Below are positions 25,501-55,285 of a stretch of 64,000 bases of DNA, in pieces. Source of the DNA: the human T2T-CHM13v2.0 reference genome, Homo sapiens; the NCBI GenBank assembly GCA_009914755.4, contig CP068257.2, forward strand, positions 6,752,001-6,816,000. Direction: 5' to 3'. Position 1 is the first letter of the stretch. Every line of letters starts with the position of its first letter. The notes beneath the pieces were generated by a model. It made no database searches, was not told where the DNA came from, and was given only the letters and a program-made list of their open reading frames with translations. A program made the position numbers and the translations under genes.

Positions 25501-28500
25501 TGGAATGGAATGGAATGGAATTTAATGGAGTGCTATGGAATCAACCCGAGTGGAATGGAATGGAATGGAATGGAATGGAATGGAATGGAATGGGATGGAA
25601 TGGAATGCAATGGAATGGAATGGAATGGAATGGAATGGAATGAACCCGAATGGAATGGAATGGAATGGAATTGAATGGATTGCAATGGAATGGAATTGAT
25701 TCAACCCGAGTGGAATGGAATGGAATCGAGTGGAGTTGAATGGAATGGAGTGGAATGGAATGGAATGGAATGGAATGAAATAAACCCGAATGGAATGGAA
25801 TGGAATGGAATGGAATGGAATGGAATGGAATGGAAAGGAATCAACCCGAGTGGAGTGGAATGGAATGGAATTTCATGAAATGGAATGGAATGGAATGGTA
25901 TGGAATAAACACGACTGGAATGGTATGGAATGGAACGGAATGGAATGGAATAAAATGGAATGGAATGGAATGGAATCAACTCGAGTGAAATGGAATGGAA
26001 TGAAATGGAATGGAAAGGAATGTAATCAACCGGAGTGGAGTGGAATGGAATGGAGTAGAATGGAATGGAATGGAATGGAATGGAATGGAATGGAATGGAA
26101 TGGAATGCAATGGAACACAACAAAATGGAAAAAACCCGAGTGGAATGGCATGGAATGGAAAGGACTTGAATATAATGGAATGGATTGGTATCATCCCGAT
26201 TAGAAATTAATGGAATGGAATGGAATGGAAAGGAATGGAATGGAATGGAACCTACACAAGTGGAATGGAATGAAATGGAAATAAATGGAATGGAATAGAA
26301 TGGAAAGGAATGGAACGGAATGGAATGGAATGGAATGGAATCTACACGAGTGGAATGGAATGGAATGGAATTTAATGGAATGGAATGGAATAGAATGGTA
26401 TGGAATCAACCCGACTGGAATGGTAAAGAATGCAATGTAATGGAACGGAATGGAATGGAATAAAATGGAATGGAATGGAATGGAAACAACCCGAGTTGAA
26501 TGGAATGGAATGGAATAACCGGAGAGGAATGGAATGGAATGCAGGGTAATGGAATGGAATAGAATGGAATGGAATGGAATGGAATAGAATGAAATGGAAA
26601 GGAATGGAATAGAAACAACCCGAGTGGAATGGAATGGAATGGAATCCACCCGAGTGGAATGGAATGCAATGGAATTGAACGGAATATAATGGAATTGAAT
26701 AGAATCATCCTGAGTGGAATGGAATGGTATCTAATGCAATGGAGTGGAATGGAACAGAACTGAATGGGATGGAAAGAATAGATTGAATCCAAGTGGAATT
26801 GAATGGAATGAAATGGATTCGAAAGGAATGGAATGGATTGGAATGGATTGGAATGGAAAGGAATGGATTCAACCCGAGTGGAATGTAATGGATTGGAATG
26901 GAGTGGAATGGAATGGAATGGAATCAACACGAATGGAATGGAACGGAATGGAATGGAATGGTATGGAATGAAATAGAAAGGAACGGAATAGAATCAACCA
27001 AAGTGGAATGGAATGGAATGGAATGGAAGGGAATCAACACGAGTGGAATTGAATGGAAAGGAATGCAATGGAATGGAATGGAATGGAATGGAATGGAATG
27101 GAATGGAATTCAATGGAATCAACCCGAGTGGAATGGAATGCTATGGAATGCAATGGAATGGAGTGGAACAGAACGGAATGGAATTGCATGGAATTGATTG
27201 AATCCGAGTGGAATTGAACGGAAGGGAATGCATTGGAATGGAATGGAAAGGATTCAACCCGAGTGGAATGTAATGGAATGGAGTGGAGTGGAATGGAATG
27301 GTATGGATTGGAATGGAATGGAATGGAATGGAATCAACACAAAGGGAATGGAATGGAATGGAATAGAATGGAAAGGAATGGAATGGAATGGTATGGAATG
27401 TAATGTAATGGAATGGAATGGAATGAAATGGAATCAACCGGAATGGAATGGAATGGAATGGAATGGAAATGAATCAAACCGAGTGGAATGGAATGGAATG
27501 GAATGGAAACAATGCCATGCAATGGTATCAACGGGAATGGAATGCATTGGAATGGAATGGAATGGAATCACCCTGAGTGGATAGGAAAGGAATGGAAGGG
27601 AATGGAAAGGAATGGAATGGAATGGAAACTAATGGAAGGGAATGGAAACAACCCGAGTGGAATGGAATGGAATGGAATGGAATGGAATGGAATGGAATGG
27701 AATACAACAAAATGGAAACAACCCGAGTGGAATGGCATGGAATGGAAAGGACCTGAATATAATGGAATGGATTGGAATCAACCCGATTAGAAACTAATGG
27801 AATGGAATGGAATGGAATGGAATGGAATGGAATGGAATGGATTGGAATTTACCCGAATGGAATGGAATGTAATGAAATTAAATGGAATGGAAAGGAATGG
27901 AAAGGAATGGAATGGAATCTACACGAGTGGAATGGAATTGAATTGAATTTAATGGAATTGAACGGAATACAATGATATGGAATCAACCCGTGTGGAATGG
28001 TATAGAATGTAATGTAATGGAATGGAATGGAATAAAATGGAATGGACTGGAATGGAAACAAAACGAGTGGAACGGAATGGAATAACCTGAGAGGAATGGA
28101 ATGGAATGGAGTGGAATGGAATGGAATAGAATGGAATGGAATGGAATGGAATAGAATGAAATTGAAAGGAATGGAATGGAAACAACCCGTGTGGAATGGA
28201 ATGGAAAGGAATCAACCTGAAGGGTATGGAATGGAATGGAATGGAATGGAATGGAATGGAATGGAATGGAATCAACCAGAGTGGAATGCAATGGAATGAA
28301 ATGGAATTGAAATGAATGGAATGGAACGGAATGGAACGGAACGGAATTGAATCGAATGGAATCAACCCAAATTGAAAGGAATGGAATGGAATGGACTGGA
28401 ATGGAATGGAATGGAATGGAATGGAATGGAATGGATTGGAATGGATTCAACACAAATGGAATGGAATGGAACGGAATGGAATAGAATGGAAAGGAGTGGA

Positions 28501-31500
28501 ATGCAATTGAATGGAATGAAATGGAATAAACCCGAATGGAATGGAATGGAATGGAATGGAATGGAATTGAGTGGAATGGAATAAACACCAGTGGAATGAA
28601 ATGGAATGGAATGGAATGGAATGAAATCAACACGAGTAGAACGGAACGGAATGGAATGGAATGGAAAGGAATGGAATCAACTGGAATGGAATGAAATGGA
28701 ATGGAATGGAGTGGAATGTAATGGAATGCAATGGAATCAACAAGAGTGAAATGCAAAGGAATGGAATGGAATGGAATGGAATGGAATGGAATGGAATACA
28801 ACAAAATGGAAAGAACTCGAGTGGAATGGCAAGGAATGGAAAGGACTTGAATAAAATGGAATGGATTGGAATCAACCCGATTAGAAACTAGTGGAAAGGA
28901 ATGGAATGGAATGGAATCTGCCCGAGTGGAATGGAATGGAATGGAATTGAATGGAATGGAATGGAGTGGAATAGAATAGAATGGAATGGAATGGAACGGA
29001 ATGGAAGGGAATTGAATGGAATAGAATGGAATCGAATCTACCCGAGTGGAATGGAATGGAAAGGAATTTAATGGAATGGAAAGGAATGGAATGGAATGGA
29101 ATGGAATGGAATGGAATGGAATGGAATGGAATAAACACCAGTGGAATGAAATGGAATGGAATGGAATGGAATGCAATGGAATGGAATGGAATGGAGTGGA
29201 ATGGAATAAACACCAGTGGAATGAAATGGAATGGAATGGAATGGAATGCAATGGAATGGAATGGAATGGAATGGAATGGAATGGAATGGAATGGAAACTA
29301 CTGGAATGGAATGGAAACAACCCGAGTGGAATGGAATGCAATGGAATGGAATGGAATGGAATGACACGGAATGGAATGGAATGGACTGGAATGGAATTTA
29401 AAGGAATGGAATGGAACCAACCCGACTGGAATGGAATGGAATGTAAAGCAGTGAATGGAATGTAATGGAATGAAATGGAATGGAATGGAATGGTATGCAA
29501 TGCAGTGGAATGGATTTGAATGGAATGGAACGGAACGGAACGGAATGGAATGGAATGGAATGGAATGGAATGGAATGGAATGGACACCAATGGAATGGAA
29601 TGGAATGGAATGGAATTGAATGGAATGGAATGGAATGGATTGGAATGGATGGGAATGGAATGGAACGGAATTAACCGGAGTGGAATGCAATGGAATGGAA
29701 TGGAGTGGAATGGAATCAACCCGAGTGGAATGGAATGGAATGGAATGGAATGGAATGGAATGGAATGGAATGGAATCAACACGAATGGACTGGAACGGAA
29801 TGGAATGGAATGGATTGGAATGGAATGGAATGGAATGGAATGGAATAGTATGGTATGGAATGAAATGGAAAGGAACAGAATGGAATCAACCCAAGTGGAG
29901 TGGAATAGAATGGAATGGAAGGGAATCAATACGAGTCAAATGGAATGGAGTGGAATGCAATGGAATGGAATGGAATGAAATGAAATGGAATGTAATGGAA
30001 TGGAATGGAATTCAAGGGAATCAATCCGAGTGGAATGGAATGGTATGGAATGCAATGGAATGGAGTGGAACAGAACGGAATGGAATGGAATGGAATTGAT
30101 TGAATCCGAATGGAATTGAATGGAAGGGAATGCATTGGAATGGAATAGAAAGGATTCAACCCGAGTGGAAAGTAATGGATTGGAATGGAATGGAAAGGAA
30201 TAGAATGGAATCAACACAAATGGAATGGAATGGAATGGAATGGAAAGGAATGGATTGCAATGGAATGGAATGGAATGGAATGGAATGGAATGCAATGCAA
30301 TGGAATGGAATGGAATGCAATGCAATGGAATGGAATGGAATAAACCCGAATGGAATGGAATGGAATGGAATGCAATGCCATGGAATGGAATGGAATGGAG
30401 TGGAATGGAATAAACAGAAGTGGAATGAATTGGAATGGAATGAAATGGAATGGAATGGAATGGAATGGACTGGAATGAAATAAACCCGAGTAGAATGGAA
30501 CGGAATGGATTGGAATGGAAAGGAATTGAATAAACTGGAATGGAATGAAATGGAATGGAAGGGAGTGGAATGGAATGGAATACAATGGAATCAACACGAG
30601 TGGAATGCAATGCAACGGAAGGGAAAGGAATGGAATGGAACGGAACCAACCCGAGTGGAGTGGAATAAAGTGGAATGGAATGGAGTATGATCAACCTGAG
30701 TGGAACGGAATGCAATGGAATGGAATGGAATGGAATGGTTTCAATCAGAGTGGAATGGAATGGAATGGAATGGAACGGAATGGAATGCAATGGATGTAAC
30801 TGGAATGGAATGGAATGGAATGGAATGGAATGGAATGGAATGGAATGGAACGGAATCAACATGAGTCAAATGGAATGGAATGGAATGGAATGGAATGGAG
30901 TCAACACGAATGGACTGGAACGTAATGGAATGGAATGGAATGGAATGGTATGGTTTGGAATGAAATGGAAAGGAACGGAATGGAATCAACCCAAGTGGAG
31001 TGGAATAGAATGGAATGGAAGGGAATGAAGACGAGTCAAATGGAATGGAATGGAATGGAATGGAATGGAATGGAAAGGAATGGAATGCAATGAAATGGAA
31101 TGGAATGGAATGGAATGGAATGCAATGGAATGGAATGGAATTCAGTGAAATGGAATGGAATAGAATGGAATGGAATAGAATGGAATCTACTGTAATGGAA
31201 TGGAAACAACCAGAGTGGAATGGAATGGAATGGAATGGAATGGAATGGAATGGAATGGAATGGAATGGAAAGGAACGGAATGTAAAGGAATGGAATGGAA
31301 TCAACCCGACTGGAATGGAATGGAATGGAAAGGAATGAATGGAATGAATGGAATGGAATGGAATGGAATGGAATGGAATGGAATTGTATGGAATACAATG
31401 ATATGGAATTGAATGGAATGGAACGGAATGGAACGGAATGGAATGGAATGGACCCCAATGGAATGGAATGGAATGGAATGGATTGGAATGGAATGGAACG

Positions 31501-32003
31501 GAATTAACCCGAGTGGAATGGAATGGAATGGAATGGAGTGGAATGGAATGGAATGGAATGGAATGGAATGGAATGGAAAGGAATCAACCCGAGTGGAATG
31601 CAATGAAATGGAATGCAATGGAATGGAATGGTATGGAATCAACCCTAGTGAAATGGTATGGAATGGAATGGAATGGAACAGAATGGAATGGAATCATCCC
31701 GAATGGAATGGAAAGGAATGGAGAGGAATGGTACGGTATGGAATGGAATGGAAAGGAATCAACCCGAAGGTTATGGAATGGAATGCAATGGAATGGAATG
31801 GAATCAACCCGAGTGGAATGCAATCGAATAAAATGGAATGGAATGAAACGGAAAGGAACGGAATGGAACGGAATTGAAAGGAATGGAATCAAACCGAGTG
31901 GAAAGGAATGGAATGGAATGAAATGCAATGGTGTGGAATGGAACGGATAGGAATAACATGCAATCGACTTTAGTGGAATGGTATGGAATGGAATAATATG
32001 CAA
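16600..32003. repeat. Higher-order repeat unit copy 1 (~15.4 kb; A block ~16.6-24.1 kb plus B block 24.08-32.0 kb). The first ~0.6 kb is diverged relative to later copies.
   Basis: 17185-24075 matches 40475-47396 at offset ~23,290-23,321. 24076-32003 matches 47397-55285 at offset 23,321-23,346. The match holds over long identical stretches. Examples are the spurious ORF translations 24228-24791 vs 47549-48112 and 24816-25424 vs 48137-48745, each identical over 187-202 codons. Confidence 0.7.
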
Positions 32004-35000
32004 TCAACTTTGGTGGAATGGTATGGAATGGAATGGAAAGGAATGGAATGGAATGGAATAAAAGGGCATGGAATGGAATGAAATCAACCCGAATGGAATG
32101 GAACGGAATGGAGTAGAATGGTATAGAATGGAATGGAATGGAAAGGAATCAACCTGAAGGGTATGGAATGGAATGGAATGGAATGGAATTGAATTGAATG
32201 GAATGGAATGGAATCAACCAGAGGGGAATGCAATGAAATGAAATGGAATGGAATGGAACGGAAAGCAACGGAACGGAACGGAATTGAATGGAATGGAATG
32301 AACCCGAGTGGAAAGGAATGGAATGGAATGGAATGGAATGGAATAACATGCAATCAACTTTGGTGGAATGGTATGGAATGGAATGGAATGGAATGGAATC
32401 GAATGGAATGGAATCAACCCGAGTGGAATGCAATGGAATGAAAAGGAATGGAATGGAACGGAACGGAACGGAACGGAACGGAATTGAATGGAATGGAATC
32501 AACCCGAGGGGAAAGGAATGGAATGGAATGGAATGGAATGGAATGGAATGGAATGGAATAAAAGGGCATGGAATGGAATGGAATCATCCCGAGGGGAATG
32601 GAATGGAATGGAATGGAATGAAATGGAAATGAATCAAACCGAGTGGAATTTAATGTAATATAATGTAATGGAATGGAATGGAAACAATGCAATGCAATGA
32701 TATCAACTGGAATGGAATGCATTGGAATGGAATGGAATGGAATCACCCTGAGTGGAAAGGAATAGAATGGAATGGAAAGGAATGTAATGGAATGGAAACT
32801 AATGGAACGGAATGGAAACCACCAGAGTGGAATGGAATGCAATGGAATGGAATCGAATGGAATGGAATGGAATGGAATGGAATGGAATGGAATGGAATGG
32901 AATAGAATACAACAAAATGGAAACAACCCGAGTGGAATGGCATGGAATGAAAAGGATTGAATATAATGGAATGGATTGGAATCAACCCGATTAGAAACTA
33001 ATGGAATGGAATGGAATGGAATGGAATGGAATGGAATGGAATGGAATGGAATGGAATGGAATCTAACCTAGTGGAATGGAAAGGAATGGAATTTAAAGAA
33101 ATGAAATGGAATGGAATGGAACAGAATTGAATGGAATGGAATGGAATGGAATCTACCCGAGTGAAATGGAATGGAATGGAATTTAATGGAATGGAATGGT
33201 ATAGAATGTAATGGAATCAACCCCAGTGGAATGGTATAGAATGTAATGTAATGGAATGGAATGGAATAAAATGGAATGGAATGGAAACAACCCGAGTGGA
33301 ATGGAATGGAATAACCGGAGAGGAATGGAATGGAATGGAGTGGAATGGAATGGAATAGAATGGAATAGAATGGAAAGGAATAGAATGAAATTGAAAGGAA
33401 TGGAATGGAAACCACCCGAGTGGAATGGAATGGAATGGAATGGAATGCAATGGAAACATCCCGAGTGGAATGGAAAGGAATGGAATGGAACGGAATATAA
33501 TGGAATGGAATGGAAACATCCCGAGTGGAATGGAATGGTATGGAATGCAATTGAATGGTATGGAACAGAACGGAATGAAATGGAATGCAATAGATTGCGA
33601 GTGGAATTGAATGGAATGGAATGGATTGGAATGGAATGGAAAGGATTGGAGTGGAATGGAATGGAATCAACAAGAATGGAATGGAAAGGAATGGAATGGA
33701 ATGGAATGGAATGGAATGGAATGGAATGGAATGGTAAGGAACAGAATGGAAACAACCCGAGTGGAATGGAATGGAATGGACTGTAATCCACCCGAGTGGA
33801 ATGGAATGTAATGGAATTGAACGGAATATAATGGAATTGAATGGAATCATCCCGAGTCGAATGGAATGGTATCTAATGCAATGGAATGGAATGGAATGGA
33901 ATGGAATGGAATGGAATGGAATGCAATGGAACACAACAAAATGGAAAAAACCCGAGTGGAATGGCATGGAATGGAAAGGACTTGAATATAATGGAATGGA
34001 TTGGTATCATCCCGATTAGAAATTAATGGAATGGAATGGAATGGAAAGGAATGGAATGGAATGGAACCTACACAAGTGGAATGGAATGAAATGGAAATAA
34101 ATGGAATGGAATAGAATGGAAAGGAATGGAACGGAATGGAATGGAATGGAATGGAATGGAATCTACCCGAGTGGAATGGAATGGAATGGAATTTAATGGA
34201 ATGGAATGGAATAGAATGGTATGGAATCAACCCGAGTGGAATGGTAAAGAATGCAATGTAATGGAACGGAATGGAATGGAATAAAATGGAATGGAATGGA
34301 ATGGAAACAACCCGAGTTGAATGGAATGGAATGGAATAACCGGAGAGGAATGGAATGGAATGCAGGGTAATGGAATGGAATAGAATGGAATGGAATGGAA
34401 TGGAATAGAATGAAATGGAAAGGAATGGAATAGAAACAACCCGAGTGGAATGGAATGGAATGGAATCCACCCGAGTGGAATGGAATGCAATGGAATTGAA
34501 CGGAATATAATGGAATTGAATAGAATCATCCTGAGTGGAATGGAATGGTATCTAATGCAATGGAGTGGAATGGAACAGAACTGAATGGGATGGAAAGAAT
34601 AGATTGAATCCAAGTGGAATTGAATGGAATGAAATGGATTCGAAAGGAATGGAATGGATTGGAATGGATTGGAATGGAAAGGAATGGATTCAACCCGAGT
34701 GGAATGTAATGGATTGGAATGGAGTGGAATGGAATGGAATGGAATCAACACGAATGGAATGGAACGGAATGGAATGGAATGGTATGGAATGAAATAGAAA
34801 GGAACGGAATAGAATCAACCAAAGTGGAATGGAATGGAATGGAATGGAAGGGAATCAACACGAGTGGAATTGAATGGAAAGGAATGCAATGGAATGGAAT
34901 GGAATGGAATGGAATGGAATGGAATGGAATGCAATGGAATTCAATGGAATCAACCCGAGTGGAATGGAATGCTATGGAATGCAATGGAATGGAGTGGAAC

Positions 35001-38000
35001 AGAACGGAATGGAATTGCATGGAATTGATTGAATCCGAGTGGAATTGAACGGAAGGGAATGCATTGGAATGGAAAGGAAAGGATTCAACCCGAGTGGAAT
35101 GTAATGGAATGGAGTGGAGTGGAATGGAATGGTATGGATTGGAATGGAATGGAATGGAATGGAATCAACACAAAGGGAATGGAATGGAATGGAATAGAAT
35201 GGAAAGGAATGGAATGGAATGGTATGGAATGTAATGTAATGGAATGGAATGGAATGAAATGGAATCAACCGGAATGGAATGGAATGGAATGGAATGGAAT
35301 GGAATGGAATGGAATGGAAATGAATCAAACCGAGTGGAATGGAATGGAATGGAATGGAAACAATGCCATGCAATGGTATCAACGGGAATGGAATGCATTG
35401 GAATGGAATGGAATGGAATCACCCTGAGTGGATAGGAAAGGAATGGAAGGGAATGGAAAGGAATGGAATGGAATGGAAACTAATGGAAGGGAATGGAAAC
35501 AACCCGAGTGGAATGGAATGGAATGGAATGGAATGGAATGGAATGGAATGGAATACAACAAAATGGAAACAACCCGAGTGGAATGGCATGGAATGGAAAG
35601 GACTTGAATATAATGGAATGGATTGGAATCAACCCGATTAGAAACTAATGGAATGGAATGGAATGGAATGGAATGGAATGGAATGGAATGGATTGGAATT
35701 TACCCGAATGGAATGGAATGTAATGAAATTAAATGGAATGGAAAGGAATGGAAAGGAATGGAATGGAATCTACACGAGTGGAATGGAATTGAATTGAATT
35801 TAATGGAATTGAACGGAATACAATGATATGGAATCAACCCGTGTGGAATGGTATAGAATGTAATGTAATGGAATGGAATGGAATAAAATGGAATGGACTG
35901 GAATGGAAACAAAACGAGTGGAACGGAATGGAATAACCTGAGAGGAATGGAATGGAATGGAGTGGCATGGAATGGAATAGAATGGAATGGAATGGAATGG
36001 AATAGAATGAAATTGAAAGGAATGGAATGGAAACAACCCGTGTGGAATGGAATGGAAAGGAATCAACCTGAAGGGTATGGAATGGAATGGAATGGAATGG
36101 AATGGAATGGAATGGAATGGAATCAACCAGAGTGGAATGCAATGGAATGAAATGGAATTGAAATGAATGGAATGGAACGGAATGGAACGGAACGGAATTG
36201 AATCGAATGGAATCAACCCAAATTGAAAGGAATGGAATGGAATGGACTGGAATGGAATGGAATGGAATGGAATGGAATGGAATGGATTGGAATGGATTCA
36301 ACACAAATGGAATGGAATGGAACGGAATGGAATAGAATGGAAAGGAGTGGAATGCAATTGAATGGAATGAAATGGAATAAACCCGAATGGAATGGAATGG
36401 AATGGAATGGAATTGAGTGGAATGGAATAAACACCAGTGGAATGAAATGGAATGGAATGGAATGGAATGAAATCAACACGAGTAGAACGGAACGGAATGG
36501 AATGGAATGGAAAGGAATGGAATCAACTGGAATGGAATGAAATGGAATGGAATGGAGTGGAATGTAATGGAATGCAATGGAATCAACAAGAGTGAAATGC
36601 AAAGGAATGGAATGGAATGGAATAGAATGGAATGGAATGGAATACAACAAAATGGAAAGAACTCGAGTGGAATGGCAAGGAATGGAAAGGACTTGAATAA
36701 AATGGAATGGATTGGAATCAACCCGATTAGAAACTAGTGGAAAGGAATGGAATGGAATGGAATCTGCCCGAGTGGAATGGAATGGAATGGAATTGAATGG
36801 AATGGAATGGAGTGGAATAGAATAGAATGGAATGGAATGGAACGGAATGGAAGGGAATTGAATGGAATAGAATGGAATCGAATCTACCCGAGTGGAATGG
36901 AATGGAAAGGAATTTAATGGAATGGAAAGGAATGGAATGGAATGGAATGGAATGGAATGGAATGGAATGGAATGGAATAAACACCAGTGGAATGAAATGG
37001 AATGGAATGGAATGGAATGCAATGGAATGGAATGGAATGGAGTGGAATGGAATAAACACCAGTGGAATGAAATGGAATGGAATGGAATGGAATGCAATGG
37101 AATGGAATGGAATGGAATGGAATGGAATGGAAACTACTGGAATGGAATGGAAACAACCCGAGTGGAATGGAATGCAATGGAATGGAATGGAATGGAATGA
37201 CACGGAATGGAATGGAATGGACTGGAATGGAATTTAAAGGAATGGAATGGAATCAACCCGACTGGAATGGAATGGAATGTAAAGCAGTGAATGGAATGTA
37301 ATGGAATGAAATGGAATGGAATGGAATGGTATGCAATGCAGTGGAATGGATTTGAATGGAATGGAATGGAACGGAACGGAACGGAATGGAATGGAATGGA
37401 ATGGAATGGAATGGAATGGACACCAATGGAATGGAATGGAATTGAATGGAATGGAATGGAATGGATTGGAATGGATGGGAATGGAATGGAACGGAATTAA
37501 CCGGAGTGGAATGCAATGGAATGGAATGGAGTGGAATGGAATCAACCCGAGTGGAATGGAATGGAATGGAATGGAATGGAATGGAATGGAATGGAATCAA
37601 CACGAATGGACTGGAACGAAATGGAATGGAATGGATTGGAATGGAATGGAATGGAATGGAATGGAATGGAATGGAATGGAATGGAATGGAATAGTATGGT
37701 ATGGAATGAAATGGAAAGAAACAGAATGGAATCAACCCAAGTGGAGTGGAATAGAATGGAATGGAAGGGAATCAATACGAGTCAAATGGAATGGAGTGGA
37801 ATGCTATGGAATGGAATGGAATGAAATGAAATGGAATGTAATGGAATGGAATGGAATTCAAGGGAATCAATCCGAGTGGAATGGAATGGTATGGAATGCA
37901 ATGGAATGGAGTGGAACAGAACGGAATGGAATGGAATGGAATTGATTGAATCCGAATGGAATTGAATGGAAGGGAATGCATTGGAATGGAATAGAAAGGA

Positions 38001-39890
38001 TTCAACCCGAGTGGAAAGTAATGGATTGGAATGGAATGGAAAGGAATGGAATGGAATCAACACAAATGGAATGGAATGGAATGGAAAGGAATGGATTGCA
38101 ATGGAATGGAATGGAATGGAATGGAATGGAATGGAATGGAAATGAAAGGAATGGAATGCAATGGAATGGAATGGAATGCAATGGAATGGAATGGAATGCA
38201 ATGGAATGGAATGGAATGAAATGAAATAAACCCGAATGGAATGGAATGGAATGGAATGCAATGCCATGGAATGGAATGGAATGGAGTGGAATGGAATAAA
38301 CAGAAGTGGAATGAATTGGAATGGAATGAAATGGAATGGAATGGAATGGAATGGACTGGAATGAAATAAACCCGAGTAGAATGGAACGGAATGGATTGGA
38401 ATGGAAAGGAATTGAATAAACTGGAATGGAATGAAATGGAATGGAAGGGAGTGGAATGGAATGGAATACAATGGAATCAACACGAGTGGAATGCAATGCA
38501 ACGGAAGGGAAAGGAATGGAATGGAACGGAACCAACCCGAGTGGAGTGGAATAAAGTGGAATGGAATGGAGTATGATCAACCTGAGTGGAACGGAATGCA
38601 ATGGAATGGAATGGAATGGAATGGTTTCAACCAGAGTGGAATGGAATGGAATGGAATGGAACGGAATGGAATGCAATGGACGTAACTGGAATGGAATGGA
38701 ATGGAATGGAATGGAATGGAATGGAATGGAACGGAATCAACATGAGTCAAATGGAATGGAATGGAATGGAATGGAATGGAATGGAATGGAGTCAACACGA
38801 ATGGACTGGAACGTAATGGAATGGAATGGAATGGAATGGTATGGTTTGGAATGAAATGGAAAGGAACGGAATGGAATCAACCCAAGTGGAGTGGAATAGA
38901 ATGGAATGGAAGGGAATGAAGACGAGTCAAATGGAATGGAATGGAATGCAATGGAAAGGAATGGAATGCAATGAAATGGAATGGAATGGAATGGAATGGA
39001 ATGCAATGGAATGGAATGGAATTCAGTGAAATGGAATGGAAAAGAATGGAATGGAATAGAATGGAATCTACTGTAATGGAATGGAAACAACCTGAGTGGA
39101 ATGGAATGCAATGGAATGGAATGGAATGGAATGGAATGGAATGGAATGGAAAGGAACGGAATGTAAAGGAATGGAATGGAATCAACCCGACTGGAATGGA
39201 ATGGAATGGAAAGGAATGAATGGAATGGAATGGAATGGAATGGAATGGAATGGAATGGAATGGAATGGAATTGTATGGAATACAATGATATGGAATTGAA
39301 TGGAATGGAACGGAATGGAACGGAATGGAATGGAATGGACCCCAATGGAATGGAATGGAATGGAATGGATTGGAATGGAATGGAACGGAATTAACCCGAG
39401 TGGAATGGAATGGAATGGAATGGAGTGGAATGGAATGGAATGGAATGGAATGGAATGGAATGGAAAGGAATCAACCCGAGTGGAATGCAATGAAATGGAA
39501 TGCAATGGAATGGAATGGTATGGAATCAACCCTAGTGAAATGGTATGGAATGGAATGGAATGGAACAGAATGGAATGGAATCATCCCGAATGGAATGGAA
39601 AGGAATGGAGAGGAATGGTACGGTATGGAATGGAATGGAAAGGAATCAACCCGAAGGTTATGGAATGGAATGCAATGGAATGGAATGGAATCAACCCGAG
39701 TGGAATGCAATCGAATAAAATGGAATGGAATGAAACGGAAAGGAACGGAATGGAACGGAATTGAAAGGAATGGAATCAAACCGAGTGGAAAGGAATGGAA
39801 TGGAATGAAATGCAATGGTGTGGAATGGAATGGAAAGGAATAACATGCAATCGACTTTAGTGGAATGGTATGGAATGGAATAATATGCAA
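32004..39890. repeat. Internally deleted copy of the 15.4-kb unit (7.9 kb). It comprises an A block compressed to ~1.0 kb (32004-~33000) and a B block lacking ~1.4 kb (~33000-39890).
   Basis: 32110-32600 resembles the A start at 39905-40400. 32630-33000 resembles the A tail near 47100-47400. The B start module (GATTAGAAACTAATGG) appears at ~32990 as at 24076 and 47397. 33850-39890 matches 26200-32003 at offset 7821-7887, with identical 174-codon stretches (34227-34751 vs 26406-26930). Confidence 0.6.
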
Positions 39891-42800
39891 TCAACTTTGG
39901 TGGAATGGTATAGAATGGAATGGAATGGAAAGGAATCAACCTGAAGGGTATGGAATGGAATGGAATGGAATGGAATGGAATGGAATTGAATTGAATGGAA
40001 TGGAATGGAATGGAATCAACCAGAGGGGAATGCAATGAAATGAAATGGAATGGAATGGAACGGAAAGCAATGGAACGGAACGGAATTGAATGGAATGGAA
40101 TGAACCCGAGTGGAAAGGAATGGAATGGAATGGAATGGAATGGAATGGAATAACATGCAATCAACTTTGGTGGAATGGTATGGAATGGAATGGAATGGAA
40201 TGGAATCGAATGGAATGGAATCAACCCGAGTGGAATGCAATGGAATGAAAAGGAATGGAATGGAACGGAACGGAACGGAACGGAACGGAATGGAATGGAA
40301 TGGAATCAACCCGAGGGGAAAAGAATGGAATGGAATGGAATGGAATGGAATGGAATGGAATGGAATGGAATGGAATAAAAGGGCATGGAATGGAATGGAA
40401 TCATCCCGAGGGGAATGGAATGGAATGGAATGGAATGGAATGGAATGGAATGGAATGGAATGGAATCAACCTGAGTTGAACGGAATGGAATGGAATGGAA
40501 TGGAATGGAATGGAATGGTATCAACCAGAGTGGAATGGAATGGAATTGAATGGAATGGAACGGAATGGAATGCAATGGAATCAACTGGAATGGAATGGAA
40601 TTGAATGAAATGGAATGGAATCAACCTCAGTCAAATAGAATGGAATGGAATGGAATGGAATGGAATGGAATGGAATGGAATGGAATGGAATGGAATGGAA
40701 GGGAAAGGAACGGAATGGAATCAACCCGAGTGGAATGGAATGGAATGGAATGGAATCCACCCGAGTGGAATGGAATGGAATGGAATGCAATGGAATTGAA
40801 CGGAATATAATGGAATTAAATGGAATCATCCCGTGTGGAACAGATTGGTATCTAATGCAATGGAATGGAATGGAACAGAACGGAATGGAATGGAAGAATA
40901 GATTGAATCCAATTGGAATTGAATGGAATGGAATGGATTGGAAAGGAATGGAATGGATTGCAATGGATTGGAATGGAAAGGAATGGATTCAGCCCGAGTG
41001 GAATGTAATGGATTGGAATGGAATGGAATGGAATGGAATGGAATGGAATGGTATGGAATGAAATGGAAAGGAACGGAACAGAATCAACACAAGTGGAATG
41101 GAATGGAAAGGAATGCAATTGAATGGAATGGAATGGAATGGAATGGAATGGAATGGAATGGAATGGAATCAACCCGAGTGGAGTAGAATGGAATGGAATG
41201 GAATGAACCGCAGTGGAATGGAATGGAATGGAATGCAATAGAATGGAATGGAATGGAAAGGAATGGAATTCAATGGAATCAACCCGAGTGGAATGGAATG
41301 GTATGGAATGCAATGGAATGGAGTGGAACAGAACGGAATGGAATGGAATGGAAATGATTGAATCTGAGTGGAATTGAATGGAAGGGAAAGCATTGGAAAG
41401 GAATGGAAAGGATTCAACCCGAGTGGAATGTAATGGATTGGAATGGAGTGGAATGTAATGGAATGGATTGGAATGGAATGGAATCAACACAAATGGAAAG
41501 GAATGGAATGGAATGGAATAGAATGGAAAGGAATGGAATGCAATGGAATGGAATGGAATGGAATGAAATGGAATAAACCCGAATGGAATGGAATGGAATG
41601 GAATGGAATGGAATGAATTGGAATAAACCCGAGTGGAATGGAATGGAATGGAATGGAAAGGAATGGAATGGAGTGGAATGGAATGGACTGGAATGGAATG
41701 CAAAGTAATGGAATGGAACCAACCCGACTGGAATGGAATGGAATGGAATGGAAAGGAATGAATGGAATGGAATGGAATGGAATGGTATGGAATGCAATCG
41801 GATGGAATTCAATGGAATGGAACACAATGGAATGGAATGGAATGGAATGGGCCCCAATGGAATGTAATGTAATGGAATGGATTGGAATGGAATGGAATGG
41901 AATTAACCCGAGTGGAATGGAATGTAATGGAATGGAATGGAATGGAATCAACCCGAGTGGAAAGGAATGGCATGCAATCGAATGGAATGGAATGGAATCA
42001 ATCCAAGAGGAATGGAATGGAATGAAATGGAAAGCAATGGAATGGAATGGAATGGAATGGAATGGAATGGAATGGAATGGAATGGAATGGAATCAACCCG
42101 AGTGGAAAGGAATGGCATGCAATCGAATGGAATGGAATGGAATGGAATCAATCCAAGAGGAATGGAATGGAATGGAATGGAATGCAATGGAATGGAATGG
42201 AATGGAATGGAATGGAATGGAATGGAAATGAATCAAACCGAGTGGAATGTAATGTAATGTAATGGAATGGAATGGAATTTAAACAATGCAATGCAATGGT
42301 ATCAACTGGAATGGAATGCATTGGAATCGAATGGAATGGAATCACCCAGAGTTTAAAGGAATGGAATGGAATGGAATGGAATGGAATGGAATGGAATGGA
42401 AAGGAATGGAATGGAATGGAAACTACAGGAACCGAAAAGAAAGAACCCGAGTGGAATGGAATGCAATGCAATGGAAAGGAATGGAATGGAATGGAATGGA
42501 ACGGAATAAAATGGAATGGAATGGAATCATCCCGAGTGGAATGGAATGACATGGAATGCAATAGAATGGAATGGAACAGAACGGAATGAAATGGAATGGA
42601 ATAGATTGAATGCGAGTGGAAATGAATGGAACGGAATGGATTGGAATGGAATGGAATGGATTGAAGTGGAATGGAATGGAATCAACACGAATGGAATGGA
42701 ACGGAATGGCAGGGATTGGAAAGGAACGGAATGGAATCAACCCGAGTGGAATGGAATGGAATGGAATCCACCCGATTGGAATGAAATGGAATGCAATGTA

Positions 42801-45800
42801 ATGGAATGCATTGGAATCAACTCGAGTGGAATGGAATGGAATGGAATGGAATGGAATGGAATGGAATGGAAGAGAATCGAATCCAATGGAATCAACTGGA
42901 ATGGAATGGAATGGAATGGAATGGAATGGAATGGAATGGAATGGAATCAATCCGGGTGGAATGGAATGGAATGGAATGGAGTGCACTGGAATTAAATGGA
43001 GTGGAATGGAATGGAATGGAATCAACCCGTATGGAATGGAACGGAATGGAATGGAAAGGAATGGAATGGAATGGAATGGAATGGAATGGAATGGAATGGA
43101 ACAGAATAGAATGGAATCAGCCCAAATGGGATGGAATGGAATGGAATGGAATGGAATGGAATGGAATGGAATGGAATGGAATGGAATGGAATGGAATGGA
43201 ATACAACAAAATGGAAACAACCCGTGTGGAATGGCATGGAATGGAAAGGACTTGAATATAATGGAATGGATTGGTATCAACCCGATTAGAAATTAATGGA
43301 ATGGAATGTAATAGAATTAAATGGAATGGAATAGAAAGGAATGGAATGGAACGGAATGGAATGGAATGGAATGCAATGGAATCTACACGAGTGGAATGGA
43401 ATGGAATGGAATTTAATTGAATGGAATGGAATAGAATGGTATGGAATCAACCGGAGTGGAATGGTAAAGAATGCAATGTACTGGAACGGAATGGAATGGA
43501 ATAAAATGGATTGGAATGGAAAGGAAACAACCCGAGTTGAATGGAATGGAATGGAATGGAATGGAATGGAATGGAATGGAATGGAATGGAATCAACCCGA
43601 GTGGAGTAGAATGGAATGGAATGGAATGGAATGAACCGCAGTGGAATGGAATGGAATGGAATGCAATAGAATGGAATGGAATGGAATGGAATGGAATTCA
43701 ATGGAATCACCCAGAGTGGAGTGGAATGGTATGGAATGCAATGGAATGGAGTGGAACAGAACGGAATGGAATGGAATGGAAATGATTGAATCTGAGTGGA
43801 ATTGAATGGAAGAGAAAGCATTGGAAAGGAATGGAAAGGATTCAACCCGAATGGAATGGAATGGATTGGAATGGAGTGGAATGGAATGGAATGGAATGGA
43901 ATGGAATCAACACAAATGGAATGGAATGGAATGGAAGGGAATGGAATGCAATGGAATGGAATGGAATGGAATGGAATTAAATGGAATAAACCGGAATGTA
44001 ATGTAATGGAATGGAATGGAATGGAATGGAATGGAATGGAATGGAATGGAAACTACTGGAACCGAATGGAAAGAACCCGAGTGGAATGGAATGGAATGGA
44101 ATGGAATGGAATGGAATGGAATGGAACGGAATAAAATGGAATGGAATGGAATCATCCCGAGTGGAATGGAATGGCATGGAATGCAATAGAATGGAATGGA
44201 ACAGAACGGAATGAAATGGAATGGAATAGATTGAATGCGAGTGGAATTGAATGGAACGGAATGGATTGGAACGGAATGGAATGGATTGAAGTGGAATGGA
44301 ATGGAATCAACACGAATGGAATGGAACGGAATGGCAGGGATTGGAAAGGAACGGAATGGAATCAACCCGAGTGGAATGGAATGGAATGGAATCCACCCGA
44401 TTGGAATGAAATGGAATGGAATGTAATGGAATGCATTGGAATCAACTCGAGTGGAATGGAATGGAATGGAATGGAATGGAATGGAACAGAAATGAATCCA
44501 ATGGAATCAACTGGAATGGAATGGAATGGAATGGAATGGAATGGAATGGAATGGAATGGAATCAATCCGGGTGGAATGGAATGGAATGGAATGGAGTGCA
44601 CTGGAATTGAATGGAGTGGAATGGAATGGAATGGAATCAACCCGTATGGAATGGAACGGAATGGAATGGAAAGGAATGGAATGGAATGGAATGGAATGGA
44701 ACAGAATAGAATGGAATCAGCCCAAATGGGATGGAATGGAATGGAATGGAATGGAATGGAATGGAATGGAATGGAATGGAATGGAATGGAATTCTATGGA
44801 ATCAACCGTAGTGTAATGTAAATGAATGGAATATAATGGAATGGAATGGAAGGGAATGGAATCAACCCAAGTGCATTGGAATGGAATGGAATGCAACGGA
44901 ATCAACCCGAGAGTAATGGAATGGAAAGCAATTGAATGGAATGGAAAGGAATGGAATGGAATCAACCCGACAGGAATGGAATGGAATGGTATGGAATCAA
45001 ACCGAGTGGAATGGAATGGAATGGAATGGAAAGGAATGCAATGGAATGGAATGGAAAGGAATGGAATGGAATGGAATGGAAAGAACCCGAATGGAAAGGA
45101 ATGGAATGGAATTGAATGGATTGGAATGGAATGGAATTGAATCAACCCGAGTGGAATGGAATGGAATCGAGTGGAGTTGAATGGAATGGAATGGAATGGA
45201 ATAAAATAAACCCGAATGGAATGGAATGGAATGGAATGGAATGGAATGGAATGGAAAGGAATCAACCTGAGTGGAGTGGAATGGAATGGAATTTCATGAA
45301 ATGGAATGGAATGGAATGGTATGGAATAAACACGAGTGGAATGGTATGGAATGCAAAGGAATGGAACGGAATGGAATGGAATAAAATGGAATGGAATGGA
45401 ATGGAATCAACTCGAGTGAAATGGAATGGAATGAAATGGAATGGAAAGGAATGAAATCAACCGGAGTGCAGTGGAATGGAATGGAGTGGAATGGAATGGA
45501 ATGGAATGGAATGGAATGGAATGGAATGGAATGGAATGGCATGGAATGGAATGCAATGGAATACAACAAAATGGAAACAACCCGTGTGGAATGGCATGGA
45601 ATGGAAAGGACTTGAATATAATGGAATGGATTGGTATCAACCCGATTAGAAATTAATGGAATGGAATGTAATAGAATTAAATGGAATGGAATAGAATGGA
45701 ATGGAACGGAACGGAATGGAATGGAATGGAATGGAATGGAATGGAATGGAATGGAATGGAATGGAATGGAATGGAATCTACACGAGTGGAATGGAATGGA

Positions 45801-48800
45801 ATGGAATTTAATGGAATGGAATGGAATAGAATGGTATGGAATCAACCCGAGTGGAATGGTAAAGAATGCAATGTAATGGAACGGAATAGAATGGAATAAA
45901 ATGGATTGGAATGGAATGGAAACAACCCGAGTTGAATGGCATGGAATGGAATGGAATAGAATGGAATGGAATGGAGTAACCGGAGAGGAATGGAATGGAA
46001 TGCAGTGTAATGGAATGGAATAGAATGGAATGGAATGAAATGGAATGGAATAGAATGAAATGGAAAGGAATGGAATAGAAACAACCCGAGTGGAATGGAA
46101 AGGAATGGAATCCACCCGAGTGGAATGGAATGCAATGGAATGGAACTGAATATAATGGAATTGAAAGGAATCATCCCGAGTGGAATGGAATGGTATCTAA
46201 TGCAATGGAGTGGAATGGAACAGAACGGAATGGAATGGAAAGAATAGATTGAATCCAAGTGGAATTGAATGGAATGAAATGGATTGGAAAGGAATGGAAT
46301 GGATTGGTATGGAAAGGAATGGATTTAACCCGAGTGGAATGTAATGGATTGGAATGGAGTGGAATGGAATGGAATGGAATCAACACGAATGGAATGGAAC
46401 GGAATGGAACGGAATGGAATGGAATGGTATGGAATGAAATAGAAAGGAACGGAATAGAATCAACCCAAGTGGAATGGAATTGAATGGAATGGAAGGGAAT
46501 CAACACGAGTGGAATTGAATGGAAAGGAATGCAATGGAATGGAATGGAATGGAATGGAATGGAATGGAATCAACCCGAGTGGAATGGAATGGAATGGAAT
46601 GCAATAGAATGGAATGGAATGGAATGGAATGGAATGGAATGGAATGGAATGGAATGGAATTCAATGGAATCAAACCGAGTGGAATGGAATGCTATGGAAT
46701 GCAATGGAATGGAGTGGAACAGAACGGAATGGAATTGAATGGAATTGACTGAATCCGAGTGGAATTGAACGGAAGGGAATGCATTGGAATGGAATGGAAA
46801 GGATTCAACCCGAGTGGAATGAAATGGAATGGAGTGGAGTGGAAAGGAATGGTATGGATTGGAATGGAATGGAATGGAATCAACACAAAGGGAATGGAAT
46901 GGAATGGAATAGAATGGAAAGGAATGGAATGGAATGGTATGGAATGCAATGTAATGGAATGGAATGGAATGAAATGGAATAAACCCGAATGTAATGGAAT
47001 GGAATGGAATGGAACGGATTGGAATGGAATGGAATGGAATGGAATGGAATGGAATGGAATGGAGTGGAATGGAATGGAAATCAGTCAAACCGAGTGGAAT
47101 GTAATGGAATGGAATGGAATGGAATGGAAAGAGTGCAAAGCAATGCTATCAAAGGGAATGAAATGCATTGGAATGGAATGGAATGGAATCACCCTGAGTG
47201 GAAAGGAATGCAGTGGAATGGAATGGAAAGGATGGAATGGAAAGGAAACTAATGGAACGGAATGGAAACAACCCGAGTGGCATGGAATGCATTGGAATGG
47301 AATGGAATGGAATGGAATGGAATGGAATACAACAAAATGGAAACAACACGAGTGAAATGGCATGGAATGGAAATGACTTGAATATAATGGAATGGATTGG
47401 AATCAACCCGATTAGAAACTAATGGAATGGAATGGAATGGAATGGAACGGAATGGAATCTACACATGTGGAATGGAAAGTAATGGAATTAAATGGATTGG
47501 AATGGAATGTAATGGAATGGAACGGAATGGAATGGAATGGAATGGAATCTACCCGAGTGGAATGGAATGGAATGGAATTTCATGGAATGAAATGGAATAG
47601 AATGGTATGGAATCAACCCGAGTGGAATGGTAAAGAATGCAATGTAATGGAACGGAATGGAATGGAATAAAATGGAATGGAATGGAATGGAAACAACCCG
47701 AGTTGAATGGAATGGAATGGAATGGAATGGAATAACCGGAGAAAAATGGAATGGAATGCAGTGTAATGGAATGGAATAGAATGGAATGGAATGGAAAGGA
47801 ATGGAATAGAATGAAATGGAAAGGAATGGAATAGAAACAACCCGAGTGGAATGGAATGGAATGGATTCCACCCGAGTGGAATGGAATGGAATGGAATGGA
47901 AAGGAATACAATGGAATGGAATGGAACCGTCCCGAGTGGAATGGAATGGTATGGAATGCAATAGAATGTAATGGAACAGAACGGAATGAAATGGAATGGA
48001 ATAGATTGAATGCGAGTGGAATTGAATGGAACGGAATGGATTGGAATGGAATGGAATGGATTGGAGTGGAATGGAATGGAATCAACACGAATGGAACGGA
48101 ATGGAATGGCATGGATTGGAAAGGAACGGAATGGAATCAACCCAAGTGGAATGGAATGGAATGGAATCCACCCGATTGGAATGAAATGGAATGGAATGGA
48201 ATGGAATGTATTGGAATCAACTCGAGTGGAATGGAATGGAATGGAATGGAATGGAATGGAATGGAATGGAATGGAACAGAATCGAATCCAATGGAATCAA
48301 CTGGAATGGAATGGAATGGAATGGAATAAATCCGGGTGGAATGGAATGGAATGTAATGGAGTGCACTGGAATTGAATGGAGTGGAATGGAATGGAATGGA
48401 ATGGAAAGGAATGGAATCAACCCGTATGGAATGGAACGGAATGGAATGGAAAGGAAGGGAATGGAATGGAATGGAACAGAATAGAATGGAATCAGCCCGA
48501 ATGGGATGGAATGGAATGGAATGGAATAGAATGGAATGGAATGGAATGGAATGGAATGGAATGGAATGGAATTCTATGGAATCAACCGTAGTGTAATGTA
48601 AATGAATGGAATATAATGGAATGGAATGGAAGGGAATGGAATCAACCCAAGTGCATTGGAATGGAATGGAATGCAACGGAATCAACCCGAGAGTAATGGA
48701 ATGGAAAGGAATGGAATGGAATGGAAAGAAATGGAATGGAATCAACCCGACAGGAATGGAATGGAATGGTATGGAATCAAACCGAGTGGAATGGAATGGA

Positions 48801-54800: not shown

Positions 54801-55285
54801 TGGAATGGAATGGAATGGAGTGGAATGGAATGGAATGGAATGGAATGGAATGGAATGGAAAGGAATCAACCCGAGTGGAATGCAATGAAATGGAATGCAA
54901 TGGAATGGAATGGTATGGAATCAACCCTAGTGAAATGGTATGGAATGGAATGGAATGGAACAGAATGGAATGGAATCATCCCGAATGGAATGGAAAGGAA
55001 TGGAGAGGAATGGTACGGTATGGAATGGAATGGAAAGGAATCAACCCGAAGGTTATGGAATGGAATGCAATGGAATGGAATGGAATCAACCCGAGTGGAA
55101 TGCAATCGAATAAAATGGAATGGAATGAAACGGAAAGGAACGGAATGGAACGGAATTGAAAGGAATGGAATCAAACCGAGTGGAAAGGAATGGAATGGAA
55201 TGAAATGCAATGGTGTGGAATGGAATGGAAAGGAATAACATGCAATCGACTTTAGTGGAATGGTATGGAATGGAATAATATGCAA
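39891..55285. repeat. Higher-order repeat unit copy 3 (15,395 bp; A block 39891-47396 plus B block 47397-55285).
   Basis: 39300-48600 is near-identical to 54695-64000 at offset 15,385-15,395. This was checked at nucleotide level around 39266 vs 54661. Multi-hundred-codon identical spurious ORFs also confirm it (40852-41703 vs 56247-57098; 41638-42231 vs 57033-57626). Confidence 0.8.

What the first reader, a model, noticed from the sequence alone, without database searches (positions are those of the whole stretch)
32004..39890. One higher-order unit carries large internal deletions (7.9 kb instead of 15.4 kb)
Between two full A+B units lies a copy in which block A is reduced to ~1 kb. Only an A start (~32.1-32.6 kb) and an A tail (~32.6-33.0 kb) remain, joined at a copy of the recurrent module GAAATGAATCAAACCGAGTGG...CAATGCAATG.TATCAAC...GGAATGCATTGG. 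Block B lacks ~1.4 kb (the equivalent of ~24.8-26.2 kb). The junctions fall at internally recurring sub-modules. This is what unequal crossing-over between paralogous modules within a unit would produce. It is a structural variant of the higher-order repeat and may be polymorphic between haplotypes.
Basis: partly seen in the sequence, partly recalled or inferred. Interest (0 to 1): 0.5.

Follow-up and report, generated by a model that had tools for sequence, protein, structure and literature searches.

The report
Seam in a satellite III repeat array
The 7.9-kb "short unit" exists, but it is most likely a seam rather than a 15.4-kb unit that lost pieces: an older copy of the repeat runs into its original neighbouring sequence, which then joins a younger, almost identical array, which is ordinary behaviour for this kind of pentamer satellite DNA.

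Summary
The window is (GGAAT)n-derived, satellite III (HSat3)-type DNA. I could not confirm species or chromosome.

A 15,395-bp unit repeats at 17.2-32.6 kb, 40.4-55.8 kb and 55.8-64.0 kb. The 7,887-bp phase interval at 32004-39890 is real.

**What is retained in the short interval**
- 32004-32628 matches the unit start at 98-99%.
- 33880-39890 matches the last 5.9-6.0 kb at 99.4-99.97%.

**What is not retained**
- The 1,251 bp in between (Z, 32629-33879) has no orthologue-level match anywhere in the window.
That is the same level as several other old paralogues.
- So one 8,959-bp block (X) is replaced by Z. There are not two deletions.

**Junction tests**
- The left junction (Y tail into Z) also occurs in four old paralogues at 0.5-15 kb, so it looks ancestral.
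- Only the right junction, inside a (GGAAT)8 tract at 33883-33922, has no precedent.

**Relative ages**
- The copy left of Z differs from the copies right of Z by 0.25-0.6%.
- The copies right of Z differ from each other by 0.01-0.03%.

Best reading: a founder or peripheral copy with its native flank, joined by out-of-register exchange in a pentamer tract to a young array. This is ordinary satellite dynamics and of low interest. Polymorphism between haplotypes could not be tested.

The parts
1..17170 (+). D: older, diverged layer of the same pentamer satellite. It has its own looser 3.6-5.8 kb periodicity, with module copies at 656, 6461, 11184 and 14774.
   Evidence: In one search about three quarters of its 200-bp windows (64 of 86) are 5% or more (10+ edits) from their best other match, up to 15%; the exceptions are duplicated patches at 9.2-10.2, 10.8-12.4, 13.4-13.8, 14.4-15.0 and 16.0-16.8 kb. 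No 15.4-kb periodicity. Module positions.
17171..26063 (+). X1: copy of the 8.9-kb block X in the older copy of the unit.
   Evidence: Aligned with X3 and X4, it carries 20 private substitutions in 8,065 columns, against 1 between X3 and X4. Its left neighbour D is joined to it as in the paralogue at 12520, at 93% and 92% on the two sides.
26064..32628 (+). Y1: copy of the 6.5-kb block Y in the older copy.
   Evidence: It carries 39 private substitutions and 13 private indels relative to Y2 and Y3.
32595..32619 (+). (GGAAT)5 tract where the short copy stops following the canonical unit. The canonical unit has (GGAAT)11-12 here, followed by the start of X.
32629..33879 (+). Z: 1,251 bp with no close copy in the window. 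It begins with the recurrent module (32626-32725) and contains a second recurrent module (about 32903-32934). It reads as the native sequence that followed Y before the 15.4-kb unit was amplified.
   Evidence: Best identity elsewhere is 81.6% end-to-end and about 87% in the best chain. The adjacency with the Y tail is shared by four D paralogues. It contains a 28-mer at 33582 that is at least 8 mismatches from anything else in the window.
33883..33922 (+). (GGAAT)8 tract holding the only junction without precedent (Z joined to Y2). The canonical X|Y boundary has (GGAAT)9 here, at 26062-26106 and 49403-49447.
   Evidence: The 130 bp left of the junction match no other locus tested above 77%, while the 131 bp to the right match ten loci at 94-100%.
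33880..40445 (+). Y2: first, partial repeat of the young array.
   Evidence: It differs from Y3 by 2 substitutions in about 6.4 kb, plus pentamer-multiple indels.
40412..40466 (+). (GGAAT)11 tract holding the derived head-to-tail junction of the 15.4-kb unit (Y tail joined to X start). A second copy, (GGAAT)12, lies at 55807-55866.
   Evidence: The left half matches the Y1 tail. The right half matches the X1 start, whose own left neighbour is D.
40446..55840 (+). X3 + Y3: one complete 15,395-bp unit of the young array. X3 is 40446-49404 and Y3 is 49405-55840.
55841..64000 (+). X4: next unit, cut off by the end of the window.
   Evidence: One substitution relative to X3 in 8,065 aligned columns.

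Best explanation
The window is a (GGAAT)n-derived satellite of the HSat3 type, organised as a multi-kilobase nested tandem repeat. I re-divide the 15,395-bp unit into X (8.96 kb) and Y (6.4-6.6 kb). The window then reads D - X1 - Y1 - Z - Y2 - X3 - Y3 - X4.

D-X1-Y1-Z is an older, continuous stretch. X1Y1 keeps both of its original neighbours: D on the left and Z on the right. Y2-X3-Y3-X4 is the start of a much younger array of the same unit, and it begins out of phase, at the X|Y boundary.

It is a seam, not a unit that lost sequence.

Two junction types are derived:
- the head-to-tail junction of the unit (Y tail joined to X start);
- the single Z|Y2 junction.

Both lie inside perfect GGAAT runs. 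The likely mechanism is out-of-register exchange, or break repair primed in pentamer tracts, between sister chromatids or homologues.

Shown: the anatomy, the divergence classes, and which adjacencies have precedents in the window. Inferred: the direction and order of events and the recombination mechanism.
For: 1. Z has no orthologue-level copy. Its best identity is 81.6% end-to-end and about 87% in the best chain. Controls reach 98.4-99.5%, and the flanking parts of the short copy reach 99.4-99.97%.
2. Half-probe tests across each junction (alignments):
   - Y1 tail|Z is reproduced on both sides by four D paralogues (left 89-91%, right 88-91%).
   - D|X1 is reproduced at 12520 (93% and 92%).
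   - X|Y is reproduced at 22083, 45379 and 60774 (96-98.5% on both sides).
   - The left half of Z|Y2 matches nothing tested above 77%, which is about background.
   - The canonical Y tail|X start matches the Y1 tail on the left only, and X1 on the right only.
3. Divergence has two classes. X3/X4 differ by 1 substitution in 8.1 kb and Y2/Y3 by 2 in 6.4 kb. X1 has 20 private substitutions and Y1 has 39.
4. Only one unit lies left of Z, and it abuts non-unit sequence D.
5. All junctions lie in (GGAAT)5-12 tracts. The Z|Y2 tract is one unit shorter than the canonical X|Y tract. Nearly all indels between copies are multiples of 5 bp, which shows that pentamer slippage and misalignment are active here.
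6. Published work describes multi-kb nested tandem repeats in HSat2/3 that expand 'hyper-locally', and evolution of HSat3 blocks on Yq12 by unequal exchange (bioRxiv 10.1101/2021.07.12.452052; bioRxiv 10.1101/2022.12.01.518724).
Against: - Only 64 kb are visible. I cannot see whether the array to the right ends in a second Y tail-Z junction, or whether further units lie left of D.
- The 'ancestral adjacency' argument rests on paralogues that are only about 88-91% identical over 130-bp half-probes. Some shorter stretches within them reach 95-96%.
- A donor outside the window with the same adjacency would give the same picture.
- Concerted evolution could have homogenised the Y copies while leaving Z behind, which would blur relative ages.
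- With unequal crossing-over alone, reaching the observed order needs at least two events, or an exchange between homologues with different copy numbers.
Confidence: 0.55

Rival explanations
1. Replacement inside an established array. The locus was once X-Y-X-Y-X-Y. The second X was then lost and replaced by a diverged paralogue, through unequal crossing-over or gene conversion with a distant, diverged part of the same satellite block that lies outside the window.
For: The period arithmetic fits a unit in which 8,959 bp are replaced by 1,251 bp. Both junctions lie in pentamer tracts that offer microhomology anywhere in the satellite. A donor carrying the Y-tail-like + module adjacency clearly exists as a class, with four examples in D.
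Against: It needs an unseen donor and two exchange points. It does not explain why the unit left of Z is the outgroup at 0.25-0.6% divergence, or why that unit directly abuts non-unit sequence D. The Y1 tail shows no donor-type patch next to the junction: 32200-32628 differs from the other tails by about 0.7%, like the rest of Y1.
Confidence: 0.2
2. A canonical 15.4-kb unit suffered two internal deletions, most of block A and about 1.4 kb of block B, by unequal crossing-over between paralogous sub-modules of the unit. A variant is an ancient deletion whose flanks were later re-homogenised.
For: Z's best gap-tolerant chain does fall on the proposed pieces: 23769-24766 (equivalent to 47085-48087), about 1 kb and nearly contiguous, followed by a jump to about 26.6 kb. 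A degenerate copy of the module sits at 23761 and 47077.
Against: The chain is only about 87% identical. It beats rival chains by about 5% of score (708-713 against 676-678) and barely exceeds the background 95th percentile of 671. The rest of the short copy is 99.4-99.97% identical to full units. The supposed deletion joint is an adjacency shared with four old paralogues. The ancient-deletion variant needs about 13% divergence to build up in Z while sequence on both sides stayed within 0.6%.
Confidence: 0.06
3. Assembly artefact. A false join at the (GGAAT)8 tract (33883-33922) connects Z, which truly lies elsewhere, to a Y copy.
For: Satellite arrays are prone to misassembly. The only unprecedented junction lies in a low-complexity tract.
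Against: The tract is only 40 bp, far shorter than the long reads used for assemblies that resolve such arrays (inference). Z is unique sequence continuous with Y1. Y2 carries private variants, 2 substitutions and 6 indels, so it is a distinct copy and not a re-used one. No read data are available to test this directly.
Confidence: 0.07

Closest known systems
Nested tandem repeats (NTRs) of human satellites 2 and 3 (Altemose et al., bioRxiv 10.1101/2021.07.12.452052; for example the ~3.6-kb DYZ1 HSat3 unit, bioRxiv 10.1101/2022.12.01.518724)
   Same: A pentamer-derived satellite whose diverged pentamers form a multi-kilobase unit repeated head to tail at very high identity. Periodicity changes along the array, consistent with local expansion. 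Evolution is by unequal exchange.
   Different: I found no paper in the held library that mentions a 15.4-kb HSat3 unit. Only about 2.6 young copies and one older copy are visible here. The subfamily and chromosome could not be assigned.
Structural-variant units of alpha-satellite higher-order repeats (HOR variants with deleted or duplicated monomers)
   Same: A unit of non-canonical length embedded among canonical units of a tandem array, usually attributed to out-of-register recombination.
   Different: In alpha-satellite variants the retained monomers are orthologous to those of the canonical HOR. Here the 1.25 kb that stands in for the missing 8.96 kb is only about 87% identical to any part of the unit. 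There are also no discrete monomers.
Layered expansion model of centromeric satellite arrays (young homogeneous core flanked by older, more diverged copies)
   Same: Divergence falls in steps from left to right: D is mostly 5-15% from its best matches, the X1Y1 copy is 0.25-0.6% from the others, and the copies from Y2 onwards are 0.01-0.03% apart.
   Different: The model was described for alpha satellite at the scale of hundreds of kilobases. Here the transition takes about 35 kb, and only one side of the array is seen.

Membership tests
Human satellite III (HSat3) | Derived from a (CATTC)n / (GGAAT)n pentamer repeat. | tested here: met
   Exact GGAAT covers 54% of the window. Tandem Repeats Finder gives period 5, consensus TGGAA, over 31514-34500. 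The strand composition bias is strong and constant.
Human satellite III (HSat3) | Pentamer runs interspersed with the 10-mer CAACCCGA(A/G)T. This is the classical satellite III motif, recalled from my own knowledge (Prosser et al. 1986) and not re-read here. | tested here: met
   CAACCCGAGT occurs 160 times and CAACCCGA 219 times in 64 kb.
Human satellite III (HSat3) | Assignment to one of the subfamilies A1-A6 or B1-B5 by subfamily-specific 24-mers (Altemose et al. 2014, PMC4022460, Table 1). | tested here: inconclusive
   None of the 11 example 24-mers occurs exactly. With one mismatch, B1 and B3 give 9 hits each and A4, B4 and B5 give 3 each. One example k-mer per subfamily is too little to decide.
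Human satellite III (HSat3) | Human (or hominoid) origin and a pericentromeric chromosomal location. | not testable with these tools
   No human or primate genome collection is available. Scans of metagenome and prokaryote contigs found nothing.
Nested tandem repeat (multi-kb unit in HSat2/3) | A multi-kilobase unit without discrete equal-length monomers, repeated head to tail at high identity. | tested here: met
   The offset is 15,395 bp, with 1-2 substitutions per 6-8 kb between neighbouring young copies. Only a few copies lie within the window.
   1,251 of 7,887 bp (Z) reach only 81.6% end-to-end and about 87% in the best chain, against 99.4-99.97% for the rest.
   The left junction is shared by four older paralogues. 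Only the right junction is without precedent.

The most novel reading that the evidence does not exclude
The window may have caught the birth site of a satellite repeat unit. X1Y1 would be the still-intact source copy with both native flanks (D and Z). The young array that starts out of phase just 1.25 kb downstream would have been made from a circular or rolling-circle intermediate of X+Y, closed within GGAAT tracts. That concatemer would then have re-inserted next to its source, rather than arising by stepwise unequal crossing-over. This would explain in one event the head-to-tail junction, the arbitrary starting phase at the X|Y boundary, and the near-identity of the array copies compared with their 0.25-0.6% distance from the source.
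Probability: 0.1. Interest if true: 0.45.

Novelty: already known. Interest (0 to 1): 0.15.

Why it matters
It matters little beyond the locus itself. It is a worked example of how a multi-kilobase unit in a pentamer satellite is bounded. It shows which junctions are native and which were made by amplification, and that all of the derived ones sit in perfect GGAAT runs.

Z, and its 28-mer at 33582, is a unique marker inside an otherwise near-identical array. That could help to anchor reads, validate the assembly and genotype this locus across haplotypes.

If the source-copy reading holds up on the full array, the locus would be a clean case for studying how new satellite periodicities arise from an older layer.

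Tried and rejected
1. **Whole-window self-BLAST** timed out. Ordinary megablast of the region gave only uninformative 77-79% alignments everywhere, because the background is pentameric. I replaced these with long exact k-mers, stringent BLAST scoring and my own semi-global edit-distance scans.
2. **External comparison.** I scanned metagenome contigs and genome contigs for a Z-specific 26-mer and a unit-specific 32-mer, hoping for human contaminant contigs. All four scans found nothing. The junction could therefore not be checked in another individual.
3. **Subfamily assignment** with the example 24-mers of Altemose 2014 was inconclusive.
4. **Literature search** for a 15.4-kb HSat3 unit found no paper.
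5. **Coding or RNA function.**
   - The open reading frames in the region are translations of the pentamer (MEWNG... and IPFHS...) and are not genes.
   - No Rfam family reaches its threshold in 30000-42000.
6. **Foreign insertion.** I asked whether Z might be a transposon or other non-satellite DNA. It is not:
   - Z is 48% exact GGAAT with the same strand bias as its surroundings, although the CC.GAG motif is about twice as dense in Z as elsewhere.
   - No 500-bp window anywhere in the 64 kb falls below 41% GGAAT.
Full report
**What the sequence is**

The whole window has a constant, strongly skewed composition: GC about 0.40 and GC skew about +0.65.
- Exact GGAAT makes up 54% of it.
- The motif CAACCCGAGT occurs 160 times.
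- Tandem Repeats Finder reports a single period-5 array across the region examined.

This is the G/A-rich strand of a satellite III (HSat3)-type repeat. The 10-mer criterion comes from my own knowledge of the classical description. Subfamily, chromosome and species could not be established:
- No example subfamily 24-mer from PMC4022460 occurs exactly.
- No primate genome collection is available.

Long open reading frames are translations of the pentamer and are not genes. No Rfam family matches.

**Checking the observation**

Long exact k-mers give dominant self-offsets of 15,395 bp, about 7.85-7.89 kb and about 23.3 kb. The phase advances by 7,887 bp across 32004-39890 and by 15,395 bp across the next unit. 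The short interval is therefore real.

I scanned 100-bp and 200-bp probes against the whole window by edit distance and ran stringent BLAST. The short interval has three parts:
- **32004-32628** follows 39891-40445 and 55286-55840 at 98-99%. It carries 85 bp of extra sequence and a cluster of differences near 32025-32200.
- **32629-33879** (called Z here, 1,251 bp) has no window-wide match better than scattered 90-98% patches.
- **33880-39890** follows 49405-55285 and 26064-32003 almost perfectly.

The lengths add up (coordinates):
- short interval: 625 + 1,251 + 6,011 = 7,887 bp
- canonical unit: 555 + 8,959 + 5,881 = 15,395 bp

**Is Z made of retained pieces of the unit?**

| Test | Result for Z | Comparison |
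|---|---|---|
| Best end-to-end identity anywhere in the window | 81.6% | Background 1st percentile 80.5%; control segments find their true copies at 98.4-99.5% |
| Best gap-tolerant local chain | about 87% identity, score 708-713, on 23769-24766 (equivalent to 47085-48087) plus a jump to about 26.6 kb | Self-score 1,251; background 95th percentile 671; rival chains on 14777-17572 and 50810-53397 score 678 and 676 |

But it is the resemblance shared by all old paralogues of a sub-repeat that begins with the recurrent module. It is not the 99% or better expected of a piece left behind by a recent deletion.

The difference from a full unit is one replacement, 8,959 bp by 1,251 bp, not two deletions.

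**A better parse**

- The older copy on the left starts matching the unit only at the (GGAAT)9 tract 17141-17185.
- That tract corresponds to the tract where the short copy stops matching the unit: 40412-40466 in the canonical unit and 32595-32619 in the short copy.

I therefore cut the unit at that tract and at the tract 49403-49447. This gives X (8.96 kb) and Y (6.4-6.6 kb), and the window reads D(1-17170) - X1 - Y1 - Z - Y2 - X3 - Y3 - X4.

**Which junctions are native?**

I tested each junction with separate 130-bp half-probes on either side (alignments).

| Junction | Other loci with the same adjacency | Reading |
|---|---|---|
| Y1 tail / Z | Four D paralogues (525, 6345, 11053, 14643): left 89-91%, right 88-91% | Ancestral |
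| D / X1 | 12520: 93% and 92% | Ancestral |
| X / Y | 22083, 45379, 60774: 96-98.5% on both sides | Ancestral |
| Y tail / X start (canonical head-to-tail) | Matches the Y1 tail only on its left and X1 only on its right | Derived, as expected for a tandem-duplication joint |
| Z / Y2 | The left half matches nothing tested above 77% (about background); the right half matches ten loci at 94-100% | Derived, single occurrence |

All derived junctions lie inside perfect GGAAT runs. The Z|Y2 tract has 8 units where the canonical X|Y tract has 9.

**Relative ages**

| Comparison | Differences |
|---|---|
| Y2 vs Y3 | 2 substitutions in about 6.4 kb |
| Y1 vs Y2 and Y3 | 39 private substitutions, 13 private indels |
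| X3 vs X4 | 1 substitution in 8,065 columns |
| X1 vs X3 and X4 | 20 private substitutions |

Nearly all indels are multiples of 5 bp. There are three age classes:
- D and Z, and the paralogy among sub-modules: roughly 5-15% divergence;
- X1Y1 against the rest: 0.25-0.6%;
- the copies to the right of Z: 0.01-0.03%.

**Most likely history and mechanism**

D-X1-Y1-Z is a continuous older stretch in which X1Y1 keeps both native neighbours. To its right begins a young array of the same 15.4-kb unit. It starts out of phase at the X|Y boundary and is joined to Z within a pentamer tract.

Out-of-register exchange, or repair primed in GGAAT runs, between sister chromatids or between homologues with different copy numbers, accounts for both derived junction types. 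This step is inferred, not shown.

It agrees with published descriptions of HSat2/3:
- multi-kb nested tandem repeats that expand locally (bioRxiv 10.1101/2021.07.12.452052);
- unequal exchange shaping HSat3 blocks on Yq12 (bioRxiv 10.1101/2022.12.01.518724).

**Rivals**

- **A canonical X was replaced by a diverged donor from outside the window.** This is possible. It needs an unseen donor, and it does not explain why the left copy is the outgroup and abuts non-unit sequence.
The 87% identity of Z and the shared left adjacency contradict it.
- **A false assembly join at the 40-bp tract.** This cannot be excluded without reads. It is unlikely, because Z is unique sequence continuous with Y1 and Y2 has private variants.
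- **A rolling-circle or re-insertion origin of the young array.** This is the most novel reading not excluded. I give it about 10%.

**Limits**

- Only 64 kb are visible, so neither the far end of the array nor other haplotypes could be examined.
- Four external scans found nothing.
- The ancestral-adjacency argument relies on paralogues about 88-91% identical over 130 bp.

**Verdict**

The feature is an ordinary irregularity of a satellite III nested tandem repeat and is of low interest. Its practical value is as a unique marker inside a near-identical array.

Noticed in passing
window 1-17170: The first 17 kb are the same satellite but do not follow the 15.4-kb period. They have an older, looser structure: the exact 24-mer module recurs at 656, 6461, 11184 and 14774. 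Partial duplicates occur at about 90-99% identity, for example 11.5-13.8 kb with 15.9-18.3 kb, 9.1-10.2 kb with 17.2-18.2 kb, and 10.8-11.4 kb with 14.4-15.0 kb.
   Followed up: partly
window 40446-64000: Neighbouring young copies are almost identical: X3 and X4 differ by 1 substitution in 8,065 aligned columns, and Y2 and Y3 by 2 in about 6.4 kb. They still differ by more than ten indels of 5-20 bp. In this array pentamer-number changes far outnumber base substitutions.
   Followed up: yes
window 38675-38785 vs 54179: Y3 lacks about 100-110 bp that are present in Y1 (30789-30893) and Y2. This accounts for the shift of offset from 15,505 to 15,395 between the copies.
   Followed up: partly
window 30246-30338 and 32025-32200: Y1 has two dense clusters of private differences. 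One is 11 substitutions in 92 bp. The other is about 12 substitutions plus 35-bp and 50-bp insertions. They could be small conversion patches from paralogues or local misalignment of shifted pentamers.
   Followed up: no
window 32164-32344 vs 32364-32544: The tail of Y contains an internal direct duplication of about 180 bp with a 200-bp period, at 93% identity. It is also present in the canonical tails at 39965-40146 and 40171-40351.
   Followed up: no
window 18944, 27466, 32626, 35317, 42225, 50807, 57620 (and 23761, 47077, 62462 degenerate): The 15.4-kb unit contains two exact copies and one degenerate copy of the recurrent module. The unit therefore spans about three periods of the older sub-repeat seen in 1-17 kb.
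   Followed up: partly
window 31500-40500, both strands: There are many open reading frames of 120-300 codons (MEWNG... on + and IPFHS... on -). They arise only because the pentamer repeat lacks stop codons in several frames, and they are not evidence of genes.
   Followed up: yes
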